This document shows positions 1,344 through 22,374 of a DNA stretch of 64,000 bases, piece by piece (position 1 is the stretch's first letter; every line of letters starts with the position of its first letter). A program made the position numbers and the translations under genes. The stretch covers positions 864,001-928,000 of the forward strand of contig OZ243916.1 of assembly GCA_965213675.1 (NCBI GenBank), written 5' to 3'. The notes under the pieces were generated by a model. It ran no database searches. It was not told where the DNA came from and saw nothing but the letters and a program-made list of their open reading frames with translations. This stretch comes from an uncultured Candidatus Binatia bacterium. Its GTDB lineage: Bacteria > Desulfobacterota > Binatia > UBA9968 > JAJDTQ01.

Positions 1344-1418
1344 GCGCCCGTAGTGAAAAGGACATCACGAGGGTCTCCGGAACCCTAAGTCCAGGTTCGA
1401 TTCCTGGCGGGCGCACCA
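1344..1418 (+). tRNA. tRNA-Arg(CCG)
   Basis: Acceptor stem GCGCCCG/CGGGCGC, anticodon arm AGGGT-CTCCGGA-ACCCT, T-arm CCAGG-TTCGATT-CCTGG, encoded CCA end. Confidence 0.96.
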
Positions 1419-15414: not shown

Positions 15415-16749
15415 CTACAAGGTGAACGCGAAATCCTCCACCACCGCACCCGGGAGGCGCATGCTACGGGTTGAGCGGCCGCCGTAGGAACCGGCATCGG
15501 GCAGTAGCTCCACTTCGCGGGTCAAGCCCACGAGATTGTCGCCCAGCATCCGGTAGAGCGTCTCGTCGAAGCGCATGACGTTCACCGGCGCCCGCACTTC
15601 ACCGTTCTCCACCCAGAAGCCAGCGAAGCGTGTCATGCCGGTCATGCGGCAGGCGTCCCGGTCGGAGTAGTTCAGGTACCAAAGGTTGTTGATGAGGATG
15701 CCGGTGCCCAGCACGGCCGGCACGTCCTGCCGCGGGATGGCGCCGCCGGCCATGGACAGGGATTCCGGCGCCTCGCGCCGGCTCGCTCCATTGCCCGGGA
15801 CGCCGTATTCTTTCGCCGCCCGCGGCGACACCAGCGGATCGCCCAACCGTCCCCCGTTGATGAGCGTCACCGCATCCGGCTTGAGGAAACCGGCCTCATC
15901 GAAACCGGCGCTCAATCCGCCGCGCGTGTCCTCCACCATGCGCACCGACGGGTCGAGGGCGGCGTCTCCCGTGAGCATGCGCAGCAGCGGAGTCCGGCGC
16001 GTGCGCCGGCCGCTCAACCCGAACCCACCCCAGCACAGCAGGCCGATCACCTCCTCCAGCGCCTGCGGCGCAAGGTACACGCGATAGCGTCCGGGCTCCA
16101 GGGTTCGCGGGGGCTGGCGCAGGGCCTCGAGCTCGGCCCGCGCCCGCGTCATTTTTTCCTCGAACTCCGCGGGATTCCACACGCCCCCGGCATAGGCGCA
16201 TTTGACCGCCTTGTCGCCGTCCAGATGAAAGCTCCAGTCGAAGTGGTGGCTGTACGCGGAAAACCAGTTGCGTTGGCCCAAAGAGTTGGCGAAGCCCCGG
16301 TGAATCCCTCCAGCCATGTAGATGCCCGCGAGGTCCCGGCCCGCTCCGGCCTTCACGATGGCTTCCACCACCTGCCCCTCGTCCTCGGGCAAGCGGTTGG
16401 GCTGCACGGTTTCCGTGGAACGGACCTCCGTCGCGTAATGCAGGTAGGGATCTTCCGGAACCACGGCCAGCCGCGCGCGGGCGTCCTCCATCGCCTGGCG
16501 CACGCGCTCCCGGTCGAACGCGGCGGCGCCGGAAAGCGTCAGGTGCGTGGCAACTTTCCGTCCGTCGCCAATCAGATGGAGCGCCAGTTCGCGCTGCTCC
16601 ACGGCCCCGGCCTGCCGCACGGCGCTCCGGTTGAAGCGCAAGAAGCTCGAGTCCTCTCCAGAGAAGCCCAGAAGCAACACTTCCCGCGGCTGCAACAGCG
16701 TTTCGGTGAAATCCGCCAGTTCGTAGAATGGCTCCCGCATGGCTGTCAT
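15415..16749 (-). CDS. tldE: TldE/PmbA family protein
   Basis: RFN.S.VRQ, PG.Y.V.L.P.A, FD..G and TG.TR motifs; no HExxxH; follows tldD. Confidence 0.85.
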   Translation of the reverse strand: MTAMREPFYELADFTETLLQPREVLLLGFSGEDSSFLRFNRSAVRQAGAVEQRELALHLIGDGRKVATHLTLSGAAAFDRERVRQAMEDARARLAVVPEDPYLHYATEVRSTETVQPNRLPEDEGQVVEAIVKAGAGRDLAGIYMAGGIHRGFANSLGQRNWFSAYSHHFDWSFHLDGDKAVKCAYAGGVWNPAEFEEKMTRARAELEALRQPPRTLEPGRYRVYLAPQALEEVIGLLCWGGFGLSGRRTRRTPLLRMLTGDAALDPSVRMVEDTRGGLSAGFDEAGFLKPDAVTLINGGRLGDPLVSPRAAKEYGVPGNGASRREAPESLSMAGGAIPRQDVPAVLGTGILINNLWYLNYSDRDACRMTGMTRFAGFWVENGEVRAPVNVMRFDETLYRMLGDNLVGLTREVELLPDAGSYGGRSTRSMRLPGAVVEDFAFTL

Positions 16750-18198
16750 TCAGCTTTCACCCCCGAACACCTGCACGCCGGCGAACACGCACGCGGGCGC
16801 GGCGTGGCCCACACGGATCACCTGGTTGGGCTCGCCCTTGCCGCAGAAGGGCGTTCCCAGTACTTCGCGCGTCTCGGGGTGGCCCACATGGGTGAGGTTG
16901 CGCCAGAAGTTGGCCGAGATGCCGCGGTAATTGGGCTTTTTCACCACTTCGCGCAACACGCCATCACGTATGACGGTACCGCGCTCGCAGCCGAACTGGA
17001 ACTTGTTGCGCGAGTCGTCGATGGACCACGAGCAGTTGGTCTGCATGTAGACGCCGCGTTCGATGGAACGCACCATGTCGTCGAAGGTTGCGTCCCCCGG
17101 CTCCAGATTGAGGTTGGCCATGCGGTCGATGGGCGGACGGTTCCAGCTTGTGGCGCGGGAGTTGGCCACCCCGGGAAGTCCCGTGCGCTGCTGGGACAGG
17201 CGCCCGCCGAGGCCGCGCAGGAGAATTCCGTCCTTGATGATGTGCTCCCGTCGCGCCGGGAGCCCTTCGTCGTCGAAGCCGAAACTCGCGAACTGTCCCG
17301 GATCGGTGGGGTCGTAGGTGACATTCAACAGTTCCGAGCCGTAGCGGTAATGCCCGAACATGTCCGGGGTGACGAAGCTCGTGCCCGCGTAGTTGCGTTC
17401 GTCGCCGAGGATGCGGTCCAGCTCCAGGGGATGGCCGATGGACTCGTGGATCTGGAGGATGAGCTGATCCGGCGCCAGCAAGACGTCCATGGCGCCCGTG
17501 GGACAGTGGGGCGCAGCCAATAGCTCCAGGGCTTCCTGCGCCAGCGCCGGCGCGGCCTCTGAAAACCCCGTCTGCTCCAGCACCTCCAGGCCGCCCTGGC
17601 GGCAGAAACCCCGGCCGCCGAAGGTGCGGCTCACGGTTTCCGGGCCGTCGTTGGCGGTGCAGCCCAGGCCGGGAACCAAATGGCTCAGCACTTGATGTAT
17701 GCGCGTACCGTCCGCGGTCAGGTAAAGGGTCTCCGTCTCCGTGTGCCATAGGGACACGTCCCAGTCGACGATGCGCGGGTCCGGGTGCAGCCTCTCGCTC
17801 TGGTCCCGCAACAGGCCGATCTTGTCGGACAACGGCATCGCGTCCCAAGGCAGCGCCACCGGCGTGCGGTACTCGCCCCGGCGCGCCTCCCGAAGCGCGG
17901 CCGCGGCGAAGTCTGTCACGGCCCACGCCCCGGTTCGCCGGGCCCAGTCCCGCGCCTGTTCCAGAGCCCGTTGAAGCCCGGTCCGGCTCAGGTCGCACGT
18001 GCCCGCGTAGCCCATGCCGCGACCGTGGGCCACCGTGACCATGACGCCCGCGTCGTCCCCCGACGCGATGGGCTCCACCACGCCGCGGCGCACGGAAACG
18101 TGCTCGGAACGCTCCCTCACATAACGCAGCGAGCAAAAACTCACTGCGGGCGCGGCTTCCCGGAACCATGCTTCAAGGCGTTCGGTCAGAGTCGGCAC
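16750..18198 (-). CDS. tldD: TldD metalloprotease
   Basis: HESIGH, FDDEG, P..RM.N, WSID and CGKG motifs. Confidence 0.92.
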   Translation of the reverse strand: MPTLTERLEAWFREAAPAVSFCSLRYVRERSEHVSVRRGVVEPIASGDDAGVMVTVAHGRGMGYAGTCDLSRTGLQRALEQARDWARRTGAWAVTDFAAAALREARRGEYRTPVALPWDAMPLSDKIGLLRDQSERLHPDPRIVDWDVSLWHTETETLYLTADGTRIHQVLSHLVPGLGCTANDGPETVSRTFGGRGFCRQGGLEVLEQTGFSEAAPALAQEALELLAAPHCPTGAMDVLLAPDQLILQIHESIGHPLELDRILGDERNYAGTSFVTPDMFGHYRYGSELLNVTYDPTDPGQFASFGFDDEGLPARREHIIKDGILLRGLGGRLSQQRTGLPGVANSRATSWNRPPIDRMANLNLEPGDATFDDMVRSIERGVYMQTNCSWSIDDSRNKFQFGCERGTVIRDGVLREVVKKPNYRGISANFWRNLTHVGHPETREVLGTPFCGKGEPNQVIRVGHAAPACVFAGVQVFGGES

Positions 18199-18277
18199 GG
18201 CATCTCCCGTGGGACGGTGTATAGCACGATGTTGCAAAAAAGTTCGTGGCGAGCGATTCGAAACACGGCCTACGAAG

Positions 18278-18455: not shown

Positions 18456-18687
18456 CCCAAGTTTGACCCTGCTTGGGCTGGCCCCTATAGTGACGGATGC
18501 CGGCAACCGGCGCGCCACAACAAGCGCCTGCCCCGCAATGCCAGGGCCGGACTGTGGCGGGACCGTGGCTGCCCTGTGACTGGACCACGGTGGACCGTGA
18601 CCGAACCTTGGTCGGATCGTCGCGGGACGATCTCCCGGGCACAGGAGAGCCGGTCGGGTCCATGGAATCGTAGTGAGGGGGTTGGTG

Positions 18688-19272
18688 ATGAACTATTGCA
18701 GCGTCTGTGCCGCCCCCGTGGAGTTCCGCATCCCGGACGGAGACAATCTTCCGCGCCACGTGTGCGGCTCCTGCCACACCATCCATTACACCAATCCAAA
18801 AGTCGTGGTGGGTTGCATCCCCGAATGGGACGACACCATCCTGCTGTGCCGCCGCGCCATCGAACCGCGCTACGGCTATTGGACCCTGCCCGCGGGTTTC
18901 CTTGAGGACTACGAGACCACCATCGAAGGCGCCGCCCGCGAGACCCGTGAGGAAGCCTTGGCGGACGTCGACATCGCGGAACTCTACACCCTCATCAACC
19001 TACCCCAGATCAACCAGGTCTACGTGATGTTCCGCGGCAGTCTGCGCGAGCGCAAGTTCGGCGCCGGCGAGGAGAGTCTCGACGCGCGCCTGTGCCGCGA
19101 GGAGGACATTCCCTGGGATCAGATCGCGTTTCCGGTGGTCGAGCAGACCCTGAAGCTCTACTTCCGGGACCGCCGGCGCGGGCGCTTTGGCACCTACACG
19201 GGCGACATCACCCGTCCAGCAGACAAGTGGAGGGACTACCACGTGCGATTTCTGAACGGGAATGGCGCCTGA
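18688..19272 (+). CDS. Nudix hydrolase with N-terminal zinc ribbon
   Basis: CSVC...CGSC, YTNPK and Nudix box GF.E..ET..EGA.RETREE. Confidence 0.92.
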   Translation: MNYCSVCAAPVEFRIPDGDNLPRHVCGSCHTIHYTNPKVVVGCIPEWDDTILLCRRAIEPRYGYWTLPAGFLEDYETTIEGAARETREEALADVDIAELYTLINLPQINQVYVMFRGSLRERKFGAGEESLDARLCREEDIPWDQIAFPVVEQTLKLYFRDRRRGRFGTYTGDITRPADKWRDYHVRFLNGNGA

Positions 19273-19730
19273 TGCTGGCGGCCATCCAGCGGTTCTTCAC
19301 GAACCAGATCGACCCCGGACACCGCGATGTGCGCCAGTCGGACCAGCACCGGCTGCAGGTGGCCACCGGTGCCCTGCTCGTGGAGATGATGCGCACAGAT
19401 GTCGAGTGCACGGAGAACGAACGCGCCGTGGTCCTTGGCGCGCTTCAGGACAAGTTCGGTCTCAGCGAGCAGGAGACCCGCGATCTGATGGAACTCGCCG
19501 AGGCCGAAGCCGACGACGCCATCGACCACTACCAGTTCACCTCTCTTGTCAAGAGTGGTTTCTCCGGGGAACAGAAGCGGAAAGTCGTGGAGTATCTCTG
19601 GGCGGTGGCCTACGCCGATGCCAACGCGGACCCGCACGAAGAGTACCTGGTGCGCAAAATTGCCAATCTCATCGGCGTGTCACACAAGGAATTCATCGAA
19701 GCGAAACTCCGGGTGCGGCGCGGCGGCTGA
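19272..19730 (+). CDS. TerB family protein
   Basis: ALLVEMMR.D, QFTSL and LW.VAYAD..D.HEE..VRKIA motifs; TGATG coupling to the Nudix gene. Confidence 0.85.
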   Translation: MLAAIQRFFTNQIDPGHRDVRQSDQHRLQVATGALLVEMMRTDVECTENERAVVLGALQDKFGLSEQETRDLMELAEAEADDAIDHYQFTSLVKSGFSGEQKRKVVEYLWAVAYADANADPHEEYLVRKIANLIGVSHKEFIEAKLRVRRGG

Positions 19731-19778
19731 AACGGGGGGAAGCTCCAACGGCGCAGTGGTTCCCCTGGCTGGTCTGCT

Positions 19779-20120
19779 TCAGCTCAACTTCCCCAGCCTC
19801 AACGGCAAGCGCGTTCCCAGCCACAGGGACCGGTCGCGATGATCGCCGATGTGCTCCCCCGTGCTGGGGTGAATCAGGATGTCGAGGCCTTCGCGGTTGA
19901 GCATGAGCCACGGAACCACGTTGGCAAACTCGTCGGGGGCGAAGGCCACTTGGTACATGGCCTTGGGGTGGGGGCCCACCGGGACGTCGTGCCAGCGGCC
20001 GAGGACGACGTTGAAACGGCCACCGATCCCCTCGCGGACACGCCCCGCCACTTCCCGGGAATCACGGTCGTAATAGATGTGGGCGTGGTAGCCGGAGATT
20101 TCGCTGGCGTCTTGCGTCAT
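19779..20120 (-). CDS. DOPA 4,5-dioxygenase family protein
   Basis: YHAHIY, PVGPHP, WL.LNR.GL.IL.HP.TG and DH....WLG motifs. Confidence 0.9.
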   Translation of the reverse strand: MTQDASEISGYHAHIYYDRDSREVAGRVREGIGGRFNVVLGRWHDVPVGPHPKAMYQVAFAPDEFANVVPWLMLNREGLDILIHPSTGEHIGDHRDRSLWLGTRLPLRLGKLS

Positions 20121-20223
20121 GTCTCTGCCTCGATGGGGTCGGGAAGCCTGCATCGCAAAATCCGTGACCGGACGGTCGCCCCTGGCCTGCTCAAACCCGA
20201 CAGGCTCCTGGTACGCATTTCAC

Positions 20224-20260
20224 AAAGAAAAGCGGGCCCTCCTCCCGGGAAGAGCCCGCT
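20224..20260 (-). terminator. Intrinsic terminator
   Basis: 12-bp hairpin AGCGGGCUCUUC/GGAGGGCCCGCU followed by UUUCUUU. Confidence 0.8.
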
Positions 20261-20593
20261 ACCGGCGTTTATCCACGCCGGTGGATGCGTTTCTTTCTTG
20301 TTCGGCTCCCCGGTCGCGGGTTGCCGTTGAGGAACTTCCGGGATTGCTGTCCTGTGCTGCCGTTTCCCCTCACACGTTATACGCTACAGCCGTGTTGTCC
20401 AACACCTGAGTCGGGACGGTCAGCCGGTAGCCGTCTTCGGCAAGCCTCCCGGGGAACCCTGTCAGCCCGCCTGACGCGGGCGTTTCGTGTCGGGCGGATT
20501 GTTTGTAGTCATCTGACACCTCCTGGCAGTTTGATGACCAAGCCCGAAACCAGCGCGCGGGGTTTCGAACTCTTGCCCGTTCGCGAACGACAC
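20224..20593 (-). ncRNA. Candidate large structured RNA (~370 nt), family unassigned
   Basis: Own promoter and terminator, many local and long-range helices, no convincing long ORF. Confidence 0.6.
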
Positions 20594-20599
20594 AAGACA

Positions 20600-20628
20600 A
20601 TCCTAGGCCCGCATCGGCCCGCTGTCAA
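20600..20628 (-). promoter_or_regulatory. Near-consensus sigma70 promoter
   Basis: TTGACA-N17-TAGGAT with an upstream T-tract. Confidence 0.75.
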
Positions 20629-20694
20629 GAAAAAAAGACGCGCGTGAGGACGATCCCACGTTGATCGAGCATCGGCGTCCCGGGCCGGGGGGGT

Positions 20695-20786
20695 TCGTTC
20701 CAGTCCGCACGAGGCCTCGTTCCGTCGAAAGGACGCTGTCCGAACCTCCGGCTTCCGTGCGAACCGGTCGCGTGGGATAGTCCTGG
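20695..20786 (+). repeat. ~92-bp intergenic repeat, copy 2
   Basis: Homologous to 18363-18455. Confidence 0.85.
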
Positions 20787-20868
20787 ACGCGCGGTTCACG
20801 TTGTTGAAGGGCAACCGCGGAGTTGATACGGGAAAGAGATCAACGGCTCGGAACGGGAAAGGGACGTC

Positions 20869-22374
20869 ATGGCAAACGAATACGATGTGATCCTGGTGGG
20901 AGGGGGCTCCGCGGGTTGTGCGGCCGCGGCGCGTCTTTCGGAAGACCCCAACCGGAAGGTGTTGCTGCTGGAGGCCGGCCCCGACCCCCTGCCCATCCCC
21001 GAGTTGGTGGCCGAGGCCGCGGGCCGGGTGCGGCTCCTGCTGGAGACGCCCTACATCAACATGTACCCGACGGAGCGGAAGCTCGACGGCAGCACGTTCT
21101 ATTCCCTGGCCGGAAAGATCATGGGCGGCGGCTCGTCTGTCAACGTGATGTCGGTGATCCGCCCCATCAAGGCCGACATGGACGCGTGGGCCGCGGCCGG
21201 GAACCCGTCCTGGTCGTGGGCGGACGTCCTGCCCATCCTCAAGCGACTGGAGAACGATCAGGACAACTCCGACAGTCCCGAGCACGGCCACGGCGGGCCG
21301 CTGTTCTTCGAGCGGCACTATCTCTTCGGCCAGGAAGTCCCGCGCGCCGTGCAGGTCTTCATGGACGCGGCGCGAGAGCTGGGGTTGCCCCAAGGCGACG
21401 TGAACGACCCGAATCCCTGGGGCCTCTGCACATCGCCCTACAACATCAAGGAGGGCATGCGGCAGTCCACGACCGTCGCCTACCTGAACGCGGCCCGGGA
21501 GCGTGCCAATCTCACCGTCATCGCCGACGCCCCCGTGGTTTCGCTTGCCGTGTCCGGCCACCGTGTGACCGGTGTGAACTACGAGAAGGACGGCCAGCGG
21601 CACACGGCGGCCGGCACCGAGGTCGTGCTTGCCGCAGGGGCGTTCCACAGCCCCCACATCATGATGCTCTCGGGCATCGGGCCGGCGGCGGAGTTGGAAC
21701 GGCACGGCATCGAGGTGCTTCACGACCGTCCCGGGGTGGGCGAAAACTACCAGGACCACGCCATGTTGCACATGGGCTTCGAGGGACGCGGCGCCTTCGA
21801 CGTGGACTGGGTGGTGCCGCCCTTCCGGCTGATCACCAAGAGCGACCCGTCACGGGAAACCGGCGATTTCCATGTGTTCATGCGCCCGCCTACCGTGCTG
21901 GAGGGCGTGGGCCGGACGCTGAACATCTCCGCGGCGCTCCTGGAACAGCGCAACCGCGGCCGCGTCTTCCTCCAGAGCGCCGATCCCCACGAACTGCCGG
22001 GGGTGGATGCGCGCATGCTGGAGCACCCCGGAGACATCGCGGCGATGGTGGCTACCATGGAGTTCCTGGAGAAATTGAGCCAGACCGGCGACATGCCCGA
22101 GTACTACGGCCCGCCCATCCAGCCCAAACGCGGCGAGGACTGGGCGCGATTCGCACGCACCGCCTTCGACAGCTACCACCACGCCGCCGGCACCTGCCTC
22201 ATGGGTCCCGCGTCCAACGACATGACGGTGGTGGACGAGCAGCTACGGGTCCACGGAATCGACAATCTCAGGGTAGCGGATGCCTCCATTATGCCCACGG
22301 TGACCCACGCCAACACCAACGTCACCTGCATGATGATCGGCGAACGGGTGGCGGACTTCATCAAGGGGATTTAG
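20869..22374 (+). CDS. GMC family FAD oxidoreductase (choline dehydrogenase-like)
   Basis: GGGSAG, GK.MGGGSSVN, SGIG, VGENYQDH, H.AGTC.MG, RVADAS and NTN motifs. Confidence 0.94.
   Translation: MANEYDVILVGGGSAGCAAAARLSEDPNRKVLLLEAGPDPLPIPELVAEAAGRVRLLLETPYINMYPTERKLDGSTFYSLAGKIMGGGSSVNVMSVIRPIKADMDAWAAAGNPSWSWADVLPILKRLENDQDNSDSPEHGHGGPLFFERHYLFGQEVPRAVQVFMDAARELGLPQGDVNDPNPWGLCTSPYNIKEGMRQSTTVAYLNAARERANLTVIADAPVVSLAVSGHRVTGVNYEKDGQRHTAAGTEVVLAAGAFHSPHIMMLSGIGPAAELERHGIEVLHDRPGVGENYQDHAMLHMGFEGRGAFDVDWVVPPFRLITKSDPSRETGDFHVFMRPPTVLEGVGRTLNISAALLEQRNRGRVFLQSADPHELPGVDARMLEHPGDIAAMVATMEFLEKLSQTGDMPEYYGPPIQPKRGEDWARFARTAFDSYHHAAGTCLMGPASNDMTVVDEQLRVHGIDNLRVADASIMPTVTHANTNVTCMMIGERVADFIKGI

What the first reader, a model, noticed from the sequence alone, without database searches (positions are those of the whole stretch)
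20224..20628. Candidate undescribed ~370-nt structured RNA with its own promoter and terminator
Seen in the sequence (minus strand): TTGACA-N17-TAGGAT (20628-20600) predicts a start at about G20593. That base opens GUGUCG, which pairs with CGACAC (20492-20487) and closes a 5' multibranch domain. The domain contains GAGUUCGAAACC/GGUUUCGGGCUU (12 bp) and GGUCAUC/GAUGACU. Next comes CCCGC-GUCAG-GCGGG-CUGAC, an interleaved pseudoknot-like or switchable pair of helices. A second domain is closed by GGUUCCCCGG (20458-20449) / CCGGGGAGCC (20313-20304) and nested UUGCCG/CGGCAA, and holds GACGG/CCGUC, GUGUU-GGAC-AACAC and UGAGGGG/UUCCUCA. The unit ends with ACCGGCGU/ACGCCGGU and a 12-bp terminator plus U tract. 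There is no convincing protein gene, and I find no RNase P, tmRNA, SRP, 6S or common riboswitch signatures. Inference: this is either a stand-alone large ncRNA or a long attenuator/riboswitch leader for the DOPA-dioxygenase-family gene that starts about 100 nt beyond the terminator.
Basis: partly seen in the sequence, partly recalled or inferred. Interest (0 to 1): 0.85.

Follow-up and report, generated by a model that had tools for sequence, protein, structure and literature searches.

The report
Structured leader RNA with proline mini-ORF
A roughly 370-base stretch in front of a small dioxygenase-family gene of an uncultured Binatia bacterium is a conserved, folded RNA leader with a tiny proline-containing reading frame and a transcription stop signal at its end, and it is most likely a previously undescribed control element for that gene.

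Summary
The unit is real: 25 of 27 other genomes of the same genus (relatives are labelled Candidatus Binatia MAGs) carry one full-length copy. Conservation starts at the T-run/-35 box and stops at the terminator U-tract. No Rfam family fits. RNase P and tmRNA lie elsewhere in the genome.

Two points change the reading. It encodes M-T-x-x-x-P-P-D-x-x-R-P, is open in 26 of 26 sequences, and in 20 of 26 is 12 codons ending Arg-Pro-stop. Second, the RNA is a 5' leader, not a separate gene. The PF08883 gene starts 19-41 nt after the terminator in 24 of 26 genomes. One genus member has deleted the ORF, the folded domain and the terminator, which leaves the same promoter in front of PF08883.

A 155-nt multi-helix domain has a core more conserved than codon positions 1-2, with compensatory changes and variable-length hairpins.

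Best reading: a new attenuator or riboswitch-like leader. The signal and the switching helix are unknown, and there are no expression data.

The parts
20600..20636 (-). Promoter. T-run (20636-20630), -35 TTGACA (20628-20623), 17-nt spacer, -10 TAGGAT (20605-20600). The inferred start is near G20593.
   Evidence: Found by the promoter scan and placed. The T-run, TTGAC and TAGACT/TAGGAT are conserved in all 26 homologues, while the sequence upstream of them is not. G012, which lacks the rest of the element, still has them. The transcription start itself is not shown.
20578..20589 (-). 5' palindrome CGTTCGCGAACG. It could be a 5' hairpin of the RNA or a DNA operator.
   Evidence: Nearly invariant in the 26 sequences, 97.4% of cells paired, no compensatory change. 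Also kept in G012. Only 2 sites in the whole genome against 1 for the reversed control, so there is no regulon signal.
20540..20572 (-). Hairpin P1a, a long stem with a loop of variable length.
   Evidence: 7 of 10 scored pairs carry changes on both sides and 94.6% of cells are paired. The loop carries insertions of up to about 40 nt that extend the hairpin.
20507..20539 (-). Hairpin GGUCAUC...GAUGAC(U), with the Shine-Dalgarno AGGAGG (20524-20519) in its loop and the AUG (20512-20510) in its 3' arm.
   Evidence: All 6 pairs are invariant in 26/26. Mean pairwise identity is 0.91.
20462..20512 (-). Leader mini-ORF. Here it has 16 codons plus TGA (MTTNNPPDTKRPRQAG). Pro-Pro-Asp lies at 20497-20489 and Arg-Pro at 20482-20477.
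   Evidence: The frame is open in 26/26. In 20/26 it is 12 codons ending R-P-stop. T2, P6 and P7 vary only synonymously; M1 and P12 are invariant; R11 is kept in 25/26 and D8 in 24/26. There are no indels inside the ORF. Translation is inferred, not shown.
20465..20481 (-). Hairpin made from the Arg-Pro codons (5' arm) and GCGGGC (3' arm). In most relatives the stop codon lies in its loop.
   Evidence: 6 pairs; 5 are invariant and 1 varies on one side; 100% of cells are paired.
20304..20458 (-). Domain 2. A rod of helices H1 (20458-20449/20313-20304), H2 (20443-20438/20326-20321) and H3 (20435-20425/20340-20329) leads to a junction. The junction carries GCUG/CAGC, GUCCC/GGGGA, the hairpin 20405-20392, a variable hairpin (20391-20372) and the GGA...UCC hairpin (20352-20341).
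   Evidence: The covariance model R1 finds it in 26/26 loci at 120-166 bits. 94.0% of cells are paired against 32-53% when partners are slid, with 5 pairs and 16 cells changed on both sides. The variable hairpins keep their stems with different sequences and carry UNCG/GNRA caps. Core identity is 0.95, against 0.69 at third codon positions of the neighbouring gene.
20283..20303 (-). Purine/A-rich linker, poorly conserved.
   Evidence: Mean pairwise identity is 0.52, the lowest in the unit.
20261..20282 (-). Hairpin just before the terminator (ACCGGCGU/ACGCCGGU).
   Evidence: 7 pairs, 2 with changes on both sides, 95.6% of cells paired.
20224..20260 (-). Intrinsic terminator: a 12-bp G+C-rich stem and an interrupted U-tract (UUUUCUUU).
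   Evidence: Found by the terminator scan. 11 scored pairs, 98.6% of cells paired, changes on one side only. Conservation of the unit ends here.
19779..20120 (-). Downstream gene, the presumed target: a 113-aa protein of the DOPA 4,5-dioxygenase family (PF08883).
   Evidence: Pfam E = 4.5e-33. The closest solved structures are annotated only as 'putative dioxygenase': 2peb, 2nyh and 2p8i. The gene follows the RNA in 26/26 loci.

Best explanation
The element is the 5' leader of the PF08883 (DOPA-dioxygenase-family) mRNA, not a separate gene.

Transcription starts at a strong sigma-70-type promoter near 20593. The first 130 nt hold a 5' hairpin, a long variable hairpin, and a Shine-Dalgarno-led mini-ORF (M-T-x-x-x-P-P-D-x-x-R-P). 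The start codon of that ORF lies in one hairpin, and its Arg-Pro codons and stop lie in the next. A 155-nt multi-helix domain with an almost invariant core follows, then a small hairpin and an intrinsic terminator a few tens of nucleotides before the PF08883 start codon.

I propose that the terminator acts as an attenuator. Most transcripts end there as a ~370-nt RNA. The gene is made only when the leader lets polymerase read through. The folded domain would be the sensor, for a small ligand or a protein. Translation of the mini-ORF would be a second input: pausing at Pro-Pro-Asp and at Pro-stop is the kind of event that EF-P, prolyl-tRNA supply or a bound metabolite modulates.

Shown here: conservation and its boundaries, the fold, the open reading frame, the gene linkage and the natural deletion. 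Inferred: transcription from this promoter, translation of the ORF, regulated rather than constitutive read-through, the identity of the signal, and the switching helix.
For: 1. Real and discrete. 25 of 27 other genus genomes have one full-length copy at 68-86% identity spanning promoter to terminator. The window's own genome has one copy. Conservation begins at the T-run/-35 and ends at the U-tract.

2. Co-transcription with PF08883.
- The gene follows in 26/26 loci.
- Its ATG is 19-41 nt after the U-tract in 24/26 and about 103 nt after it in 2/26, which leaves no room for a promoter of its own.
- G012 keeps the promoter and 5' palindrome but has lost the ORF, domain 2 and the terminator, so the promoter sits about 75 nt before the PF08883 ATG.
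- G012 is nested, with 98/95 support, inside a clade whose other members carry the RNA, so this is a secondary deletion.
- The upstream neighbour differs in 3 of 26 (a transposase in two, a YadA-like gene in one) while promoter-RNA-PF08883 stays intact.

3. Structure.
- Domain 1 and the 3' hairpins: 97.5% of cells paired against 36-48% when slid; 9 pairs with compensatory change, reached by 0/500 shuffles.
- Domain 2: 94.0% against 32-53%.
- Three hairpins vary in length and sequence but keep their stems.
- Core identity is 0.89-0.95, against 0.69 at third codon positions.

4. Mini-ORF. The SD and ATG are invariant. The frame is open with no indels in 26/26. Thr2, Pro6 and Pro7 change only synonymously.

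5. Precedent. Passages of PMC6460261 describe the 264-nt mgtA leader with the proline-codon ORF mgtL, and the mgtCBR leader with three consecutive proline codons in mgtP. In both, ribosome stalling changes attenuator formation and EF-P has an influence. The window's genome has an EF-P gene.
Against: - No expression data. No RNA run holds the stretch, so the start site, the 3' end and read-through are unobserved.
- No antiterminator could be singled out. With the ribosome footprint forced single-stranded at the Pro-Pro-Asp site or at the stop codon, the terminator stayed in the minimum-energy fold in 25/26 and 26/26 sequences.
- Several invariant segments can pair with the terminator's 5' arm: the P1a 5' arm (7 bp), the Arg-Pro codons (6 bp) and the GGGGA of the core (5 bp). 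None is distinguished by covariation.
- The mini-ORF lies about 240 nt from the terminator, unlike classical leader-peptide attenuators.
- Over the whole ORF, variable columns are spread evenly over codon positions (7/6/7). The coding signal therefore rests on three synonymous-only codons, the invariant SD/ATG and the absence of indels.
- In domain 2 the number of covarying pairs is not beyond shuffles (5 pairs; 100/500 shuffles reach it), because the core hardly varies.
- All data come from one genus (26 distinct sequences), so the sequences are not independent.
- The strong promoter with a T-run and the strong terminator would suit a stable stand-alone RNA equally well.
Confidence: 0.6

Rival explanations
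1. Stand-alone stable RNA, possibly dual-function, encoding the 12-16-aa peptide and acting in trans. The terminator would be efficient and constitutive, the ~370-nt product would be the functional molecule, and PF08883 would be expressed only by incidental leak-through.
For: The unit has a near-consensus promoter with a conserved T-run and a 12-bp terminator, and conservation is confined exactly to it. The terminator persists in every folding scenario tried. The core is conserved as strongly as in housekeeping RNAs. Each genome has a single copy.
Against: PF08883 starts 19-41 nt after the terminator in 24/26, so it depends on this promoter. The gene is conserved, at 77-90% amino-acid identity, so read-through must matter. 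G012 removed the RNA but kept the promoter fused to the gene, so the RNA is dispensable while the promoter-gene link is kept. The RNA is never found away from PF08883 (26/26). It is absent from 72 other genera of the class, although 32 of the 34 same-order genomes from other genera have the gene.
Confidence: 0.2
2. Leaky constitutive leader. The element is a 5' UTR that sets a fixed low expression level or stabilises the mRNA, without sensing anything. The mini-ORF would only keep ribosomes on the nascent RNA.
For: The U-tract is interrupted by C (UUUCUUU) in all sequences, which fits partial termination. No switching helix was found.
Against: A passive spacer would not keep about 60 invariant columns in a 165-position domain. 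It would not hold a core at 0.95 identity while the linker drifts to 0.52, nor conserve specific residues of a mini-ORF.
Confidence: 0.12
3. A diverged member of a known RNA family: RNase P, tmRNA, 6S, SRP, an Rsm-type RNA or a known riboswitch class.
For: The size (~370 nt) is in the range of RNase P and tmRNA. RF00013 found no 6S RNA in this genome. There is a weak RsmW hit.
Against: RNase P (297.6 bits) and tmRNA (198.2 bits) are elsewhere in the genome. The RsmW match scores 25.6 bits against a cut-off of 52 and covers only the two terminal hairpins. No other Rfam family reaches E<=10 on 801 nt. The RNA is confined to one genus, and one member has deleted it; neither fits a housekeeping RNA. 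The 6S model is also insensitive: it matched 5 of 14 control genomes.
Confidence: 0.02

Closest known systems
Salmonella mgtA and mgtCBR leader RNAs (Mg2+ riboswitch plus the proline-codon ORFs mgtL / mgtP)
   Same: A long 5' leader (264 nt for mgtA) combines a structured sensing RNA with a very short ORF that contains proline codons (three consecutive ones in mgtP). Ribosome stalling at those codons alters an attenuator, and EF-P modulates it (passages of PMC6460261). Here a ~370-nt leader has a conserved structured domain, a 12-16-codon ORF with Pro-Pro-Asp and a final Pro, and a terminator before the gene.
   Different: There is no sequence or Rfam relationship. Here the ORF comes before the structured domain instead of being embedded in the switching stems. 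Termination is intrinsic, whereas I recall, without a call, that mgtA uses Rho. The regulated gene is a PF08883 enzyme, not a transporter. No alternative stem-loops have been identified.
Classical leader-peptide transcription attenuators (trpL, hisL, pheL type)
   Same: A short SD-led ORF in the leader and an intrinsic terminator just before the structural gene. Ribosome speed on particular codons is the sensed variable (hisL mechanism as described in passages of PMC8129111).
   Different: In those systems the ORF overlaps the antiterminator/terminator stems, and the genes make the cognate amino acid. Here about 240 nt of conserved structured RNA separate the ORF from the terminator. There are only two tandem Pro codons plus a terminal Pro, and the gene is not a proline-biosynthesis gene.
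Termination-stalling regulatory peptides that end in Pro-stop (TnaC type; recalled, not from a call)
   Same: 20 of 26 mini-ORFs end Arg-Pro-stop, mostly UGA. From general knowledge, a C-terminal Pro before a stop is a slow-termination context, and TnaC uses it to sense tryptophan.
   Different: In the window's own clade the ORF runs 1-4 or more codons past Arg-Pro, so Pro-stop is not universal. No Rho-dependent design is evident. Stalling has not been tested.
Riboswitches with an intrinsic-terminator expression platform
   Same: A conserved multi-helix domain with invariant junction nucleotides lies in a 5' UTR and is followed by a terminator directly upstream of the gene.
   Different: There is no known ligand and no identified switching helix. 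Only one gene family in one genus is involved, and a translated-looking ORF lies upstream of the aptamer-like domain. The element matches no Rfam riboswitch.
Dual-function sRNAs (SgrS/SgrT, RNAIII/hld; recalled, not from a call)
   Same: A discrete promoter-to-terminator RNA of a few hundred nucleotides that also carries a small ORF.
   Different: Those act in trans and are not fused to the 5' end of a downstream gene. Here the downstream gene depends on the same promoter.

Membership tests
Any Rfam 15 family | Covariance-model score at or above the family's gathering score | tested here: not met
   In the whole window only a tRNA at 1344-1415 reaches its gathering score. At E<=10 on 20100-20900 the only match is RsmW, 25.6 bits against 52.
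Housekeeping RNAs of similar size (RNase P, tmRNA) | It is the genome's only copy of that RNA | tested here: not met
   RNase P lies at G000:C1:3605987-3606367 (297.6 bits) and tmRNA at C1:3630949-3631298 (198.2 bits), both outside the window.
Leader-peptide transcription attenuator | A short ORF with its own ribosome-binding site inside the 5' leader | tested here: met
   AGGAGG-N6-ATG is invariant and the frame is open in 26/26. Translation itself was not observed.
Leader-peptide transcription attenuator | An intrinsic terminator between the leader ORF and the structural gene | tested here: met
   A 12-bp stem plus U-tract at 20260-20224. The gene's ATG is 19-41 nt further on in 24/26.
Leader-peptide transcription attenuator | An antiterminator that excludes the terminator and whose formation depends on ribosome position | tested here: inconclusive
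   Masking the ribosome footprint left the terminator in the MFE fold in 25/26 sequences (Pro-Pro-Asp site) and 26/26 (stop). Several invariant complementary segments exist, but none is singled out. Co-transcriptional kinetics were not modelled.
Leader-peptide transcription attenuator | Regulatory codons match the pathway of the regulated genes | tested here: not met
   The conserved codons are Pro-Pro-Asp and Arg-Pro. The gene is a PF08883 dioxygenase-family protein with no known link to proline.
Riboswitch | A conserved structured aptamer domain in the 5' UTR, supported by covariation | tested here: met
   Domain 2 has 43 pairs with 94.0% of cells paired against 32-53% when slid. Helices H2 and H3 covary, and variable hairpins sit at fixed sites. 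The count of covarying pairs is not beyond shuffles (100/500), because the core is nearly invariant.
Riboswitch | Direct, specific ligand binding that changes the fold | not testable with these tools
   Needs in-line probing, SHAPE or ITC. No candidate ligand follows from the gene's annotation.
Riboswitch | An expression platform that shares nucleotides with the aptamer | tested here: inconclusive
   The 3' arm of H1 (GGGGAGCC) can pair with the terminator's 5' arm at a mean of -14.8 kcal/mol, but two other sites do as well. No covariation is available.
Trans-acting / dual-function sRNA | A transcription unit independent of neighbouring genes | tested here: not met
   The downstream gene has no room for its own promoter in 24/26. 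In G012 it is driven by the RNA's promoter after the RNA was deleted.

The most novel reading that the evidence does not exclude
The leader is a two-input genetic switch of a new class. A nascent-peptide pausing module (Pro-Pro-Asp ... Arg-Pro-stop) and a new ligand- or protein-binding aptamer of about 155 nt jointly decide whether an intrinsic terminator forms in front of a PF08883 enzyme gene. The aptamer's ligand would then point to the unknown bacterial function of the PF08883 family.
Probability: 0.25. Interest if true: 0.75.

Novelty: new variant of a known kind. Interest (0 to 1): 0.5.

Why it matters
If correct, this is a new family of long regulatory leader RNA from a phylum with no cultured model. 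It combines a proline-stalling-type mini-ORF with a large, highly conserved folded domain, a pairing known mainly from the Salmonella mgt leaders. It controls a single-copy PF08883 gene found in 59 of the 61 same-order genomes searched. The bacterial function of that family is unknown; its solved structures are annotated only as 'putative dioxygenase'. Finding what the domain binds could therefore reveal what the enzyme acts on. The natural deletion variant (G012) and the in-vitro-tractable parts (a sigma-70-type promoter and an intrinsic terminator) make the hypothesis testable without culturing the organism. The significance is limited by the narrow distribution (one genus) and the lack of expression data.

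Tried and rejected
- Expression. The look-up of sequencing runs listed 4 DNA holders from one study and no RNA holder, so nothing was laid. This is no evidence either way.
- Wider homologues. BLAST over 33 same-order genomes outside the genus gave only two 27-48-nt chance-level matches. Covariance model R1 over 151 class-level genomes hit only the genus: 8 genomes including the window's own, and 0 of 72 other genera, under strict filters. R1 with filters off on the PF08883 loci of G012, G014 and two other families scored at most 10.9 bits.
- Collection scans. An exact-pattern scan of genome contigs returned 21 loci; the 20 that could be compared repeat sequences already in hand, and the other was cut off at the end of its stretch. 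A metagenome-contig scan returned 3 loci that look near-identical to L009, L004 and L023 by eye. So there is no extra diversity: 26 distinct sequences in all.
- Upstream regions in other families. In the 150 nt shown before PF08883 in 20 loci of the two other families, I saw neither the mini-ORF motif nor the terminator (by eye).
- Longer ORFs overlapping the unit (76, 120, 96 and 43 aa) are not kept in one frame across homologues. The longest single-frame stretches fall to 23, 39, 14 and 22 aa, whereas the control gene is covered for 112-113 aa in 25/25.
- Ribosome-footprint masking did not remove the terminator. A first version of that script mis-scored 5 sequences and was replaced.
- Scans for an antiterminator gave three equally good sites and many invariant alternative helices.
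- The palindrome as a regulon operator: 2 genomic sites against 1 for the control.
- 6S RNA: RF00013 found none in the genome, but it is insensitive (5 of 14 controls). The element is neither rod-like nor widespread.
- Literature. Binatota + riboswitch gave 0 papers. Binatia + noncoding RNA gave 0. DOPA dioxygenase + riboswitch gave 6 papers, 5 listed, all on biosensors or engineering by title. PF08883 gave 2 unrelated papers. Supplements were not consulted.
Full report
What is there. On the minus strand, between the divergent GMC-oxidoreductase gene (ATG at 20869, + strand) and the PF08883 gene (ATG at 20120, - strand; Pfam E = 4.5e-33), lies a gap of about 750 nt. TTGACA-N17-TAGGAT (20628-20600) is the only sigma-70-like site in 19700-21200; 0.1 is expected from shuffles. 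The 12-bp terminator at 20260-20231 with its U-tract is found as well. The 370 nt from 20593 to 20224 fold to -160.8 kcal/mol, z = -3.34 against dinucleotide shuffles.

It is a conserved, discrete unit. A DNA search of 61 related genomes found a full-length match in 25 of the 27 other members of the genus, at 68-86% identity. It found none in 5 genomes of a second family, and only two 27-48-nt chance-level matches in 28 genomes of a third. The window's own genome has one copy. Record titles of matching public contigs label the relatives as Candidatus Binatia MAGs. In the alignment, conservation starts at a T-run directly upstream of the -35 box and ends at the terminator's U-tract, while the flanks are not alignable. 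Exact-pattern scans of the genome and metagenome collections added no new sequence types, so all comparative statements rest on 26 distinct, related sequences.

It is not a known RNA. Rfam 15 at gathering scores finds only a tRNA elsewhere in the window. A permissive scan of 20100-20900 gives a single sub-threshold RsmW match, 25.6 bits against a cut-off of 52, on the two terminal hairpins. RNase P and tmRNA are found elsewhere in the genome with high scores. 6S RNA is not found by RF00013, but that model matched only 5 of 14 control genomes. This element is branched, carries an ORF, is confined to one genus and is deleted in one member, so it does not behave like a housekeeping RNA. Four literature searches found nothing on such an element.

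Structure. For the 5' hairpin, the long hairpin P1a, the SD/AUG hairpin, the hairpin at the ORF's end, the pre-terminator hairpin and the terminator, 97.5% of pair cells are standard pairs, against 36-48% when partners are slid by 1-3 columns. Nine pairs carry changes on both sides, which 0 of 500 shuffles reach. P1a alone has 7 of 10 such pairs.

For the 155-nt domain 2 I wrote a structure by hand, built covariance model R1 and re-aligned all 26 sequences, which score 120-166 bits. In that alignment 94.0% of cells pair, against 32-53% when slid. Five pairs and 16 cells have changes on both sides. The cell count exceeds all shuffles, but the pair count does not (100 of 500 reach it), because the core barely varies. 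This alignment is fitted to the model, which favours the structure.

Three hairpins (P1a, H7, H5) differ in length and sequence between species but always refold as hairpins, several capped by UNCG or GNRA loops. Mean pairwise identity is 0.95 in the core (alignment columns 228-266) and 0.52 in the A-rich linker. In the neighbouring coding sequence it is 0.69 at third codon positions and 0.91-0.94 at positions 1-2.

AGGAGG, six nucleotides and ATG (20524-20510) are invariant. The frame that follows is open and free of indels in 26 of 26 sequences. It reads M-T-[KTIQN]-x-x-P-P-[D/F]-x-x-[R/C]-P. In 20 of 26 it is exactly 12 codons ending Arg-Pro-stop. In the window's clade it runs on: 16 codons here, 20512-20462. 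Thr2, Pro6 and Pro7 vary only at the third position. Met1 and Pro12 are invariant, Arg11 is kept in 25/26 and Asp8 in 24/26. Across all 12 codons, variable columns are spread evenly over codon positions (7/6/7), so the case for translation is suggestive, not proven. Longer ORFs that overlap the unit are not maintained in frame, whereas the control gene is. The start codon sits in the 3' arm of the GGUCAUC/GAUGAC hairpin. The Arg-Pro codons form the 5' arm of the next hairpin, whose loop holds the stop codon in most species.

The RNA is a leader of the PF08883 gene.
(i) PF08883 follows the element in 26 of 26 loci.
(ii) Its ATG lies 19-41 nt after the U-tract in 24 of 26, preceded by a conserved GAGG. 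Only the window's genome and one other have about 103 nt. The gene therefore has no room for a promoter of its own, yet it is well conserved.
(iii) G012 lacks the RNA but keeps the T-run, TTGACA-N17-TAGACT, the 5' palindrome and the first half of P1a. These are joined directly to the sequence that elsewhere follows the terminator, so the promoter sits about 75 nt before the PF08883 ATG. On a tree of three concatenated neighbouring proteins, G012 is nested with 98/95 support among RNA-bearing genomes, so this is a secondary deletion. G014, a 2.7-Mb genome on a long branch, also lacks the element.
(iv) The upstream neighbour is replaced in 3 of 26, by a transposase in two and a YadA-like gene in one, without disturbing promoter-RNA-gene.
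(v) PF08883 is present in 59 of 61 related genomes, but the RNA domain is not found in 72 other genera of the class. In the 20 PF08883 loci of the two other families that I inspected, the 150 nt shown upstream of the gene carry neither the mini-ORF motif nor the terminator (by eye).
The element is thus a genus-specific addition to the 5' UTR of an older gene.

Mechanism: what is shown and what is inferred. The architecture is shown: promoter, mini-ORF, conserved folded domain, terminator, gene. I infer that the terminator attenuates transcription into PF08883 and that the folded domain and the mini-ORF are the inputs. Pro-Pro-Asp and a C-terminal Pro before a stop are contexts where ribosomes slow down (general knowledge). 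[quoted passage not shown] An EF-P gene is present here.

Several results count against a simple stall-driven switch. Forcing the ribosome footprint single-stranded never displaced the terminator from the minimum-energy fold (25/26 and 26/26). The ORF is about 240 nt from the terminator. Candidate antiterminator pairings exist: the 3' arm of H1, the 5' arm of P1a and the Arg-Pro codons each pair with the terminator's 5' arm at about -14 to -15 kcal/mol. They are equally good, and all are invariant, so covariation cannot choose between them. The interrupted U-tract would also allow constitutive partial read-through. No RNA data exist for this organism in the indexed runs.

Comparison and novelty. 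Functionally the closest systems are the mgtA/mgtCBR leaders and riboswitches with terminator platforms. The element is a member of neither: it has no Rfam match, a different layout, no known ligand and an unrelated gene. It fails the defining tests for a classical amino-acid attenuator, since the codons are unrelated to the gene's pathway and no ribosome-dependent antiterminator was found. It also fails the test for an independent sRNA gene. I rate it a new variant of a known kind, a long regulatory leader that combines a mini-ORF with a structured domain. Confidence that the leader/attenuator reading is right is 0.6, and interest is moderate (0.5). The element is real, undescribed and testable in vitro, but it is confined to one uncultured genus and has no known signal.

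Noticed in passing
L086 (G012), upstream of its PF08883 gene: A natural deletion of about 330 nt. It removes the mini-ORF, domain 2 and the terminator but keeps the promoter, the 5' palindrome and half of hairpin P1a. The junction shows a short CTG microhomology.
   Followed up: yes
L010:111-1415 (G022) and L015:2008-3312 (G013): A 434-aa transposase (HTH plus rve integrase domains) sits just upstream of the RNA's promoter in two genomes, in place of the GMC-oxidoreductase neighbour. In L021 (G010) a YadA-like adhesin gene is upstream.
   Followed up: partly
window 20799-20816 (- strand): The motif GGTTGCC(C/G)TTCAACAACG recurs upstream of the promoter in many homologues, usually about 20 nt before the T-run. 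In the window about 160 extra nucleotides separate it from the promoter. It may belong to the divergent GMC gene's control region.
   Followed up: no
window 20643-20660 (- strand) and 20121-20223: The window's genome has extra sequence that most relatives lack. One piece is a terminator-like hairpin just before the T-run. The other is a spacer of about 100 nt between the terminator and the PF08883 start, against 19-41 nt in 24 of 26.
   Followed up: partly
L098, L109, L111, L114, L116 (other families), about 35-60 nt before PF08883: A shared promoter-like CTTGCA...TAGCAT element lies before PF08883, with a short 5' UTR. In these families the gene appears to have a simple promoter and no long leader.
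   Followed up: no
window 1344-1415 (+): A tRNA gene (63.9 bits), the only Rfam match in the window.
   Followed up: no
G000, whole genome: RF00013 detects no 6S RNA. The assembly is listed with 8% contamination.
   Followed up: no
window 15415-18237 (-), 18673-19272 (+), 19092-19730 (+): Neighbouring genes. Two long minus-strand ORFs whose translations look TldE/PmbA- and TldD-like; this is my reading of the translations and was not scanned. A NUDIX hydrolase with an N-terminal zinc ribbon and a TerB-domain protein convergent with PF08883.
   Followed up: partly
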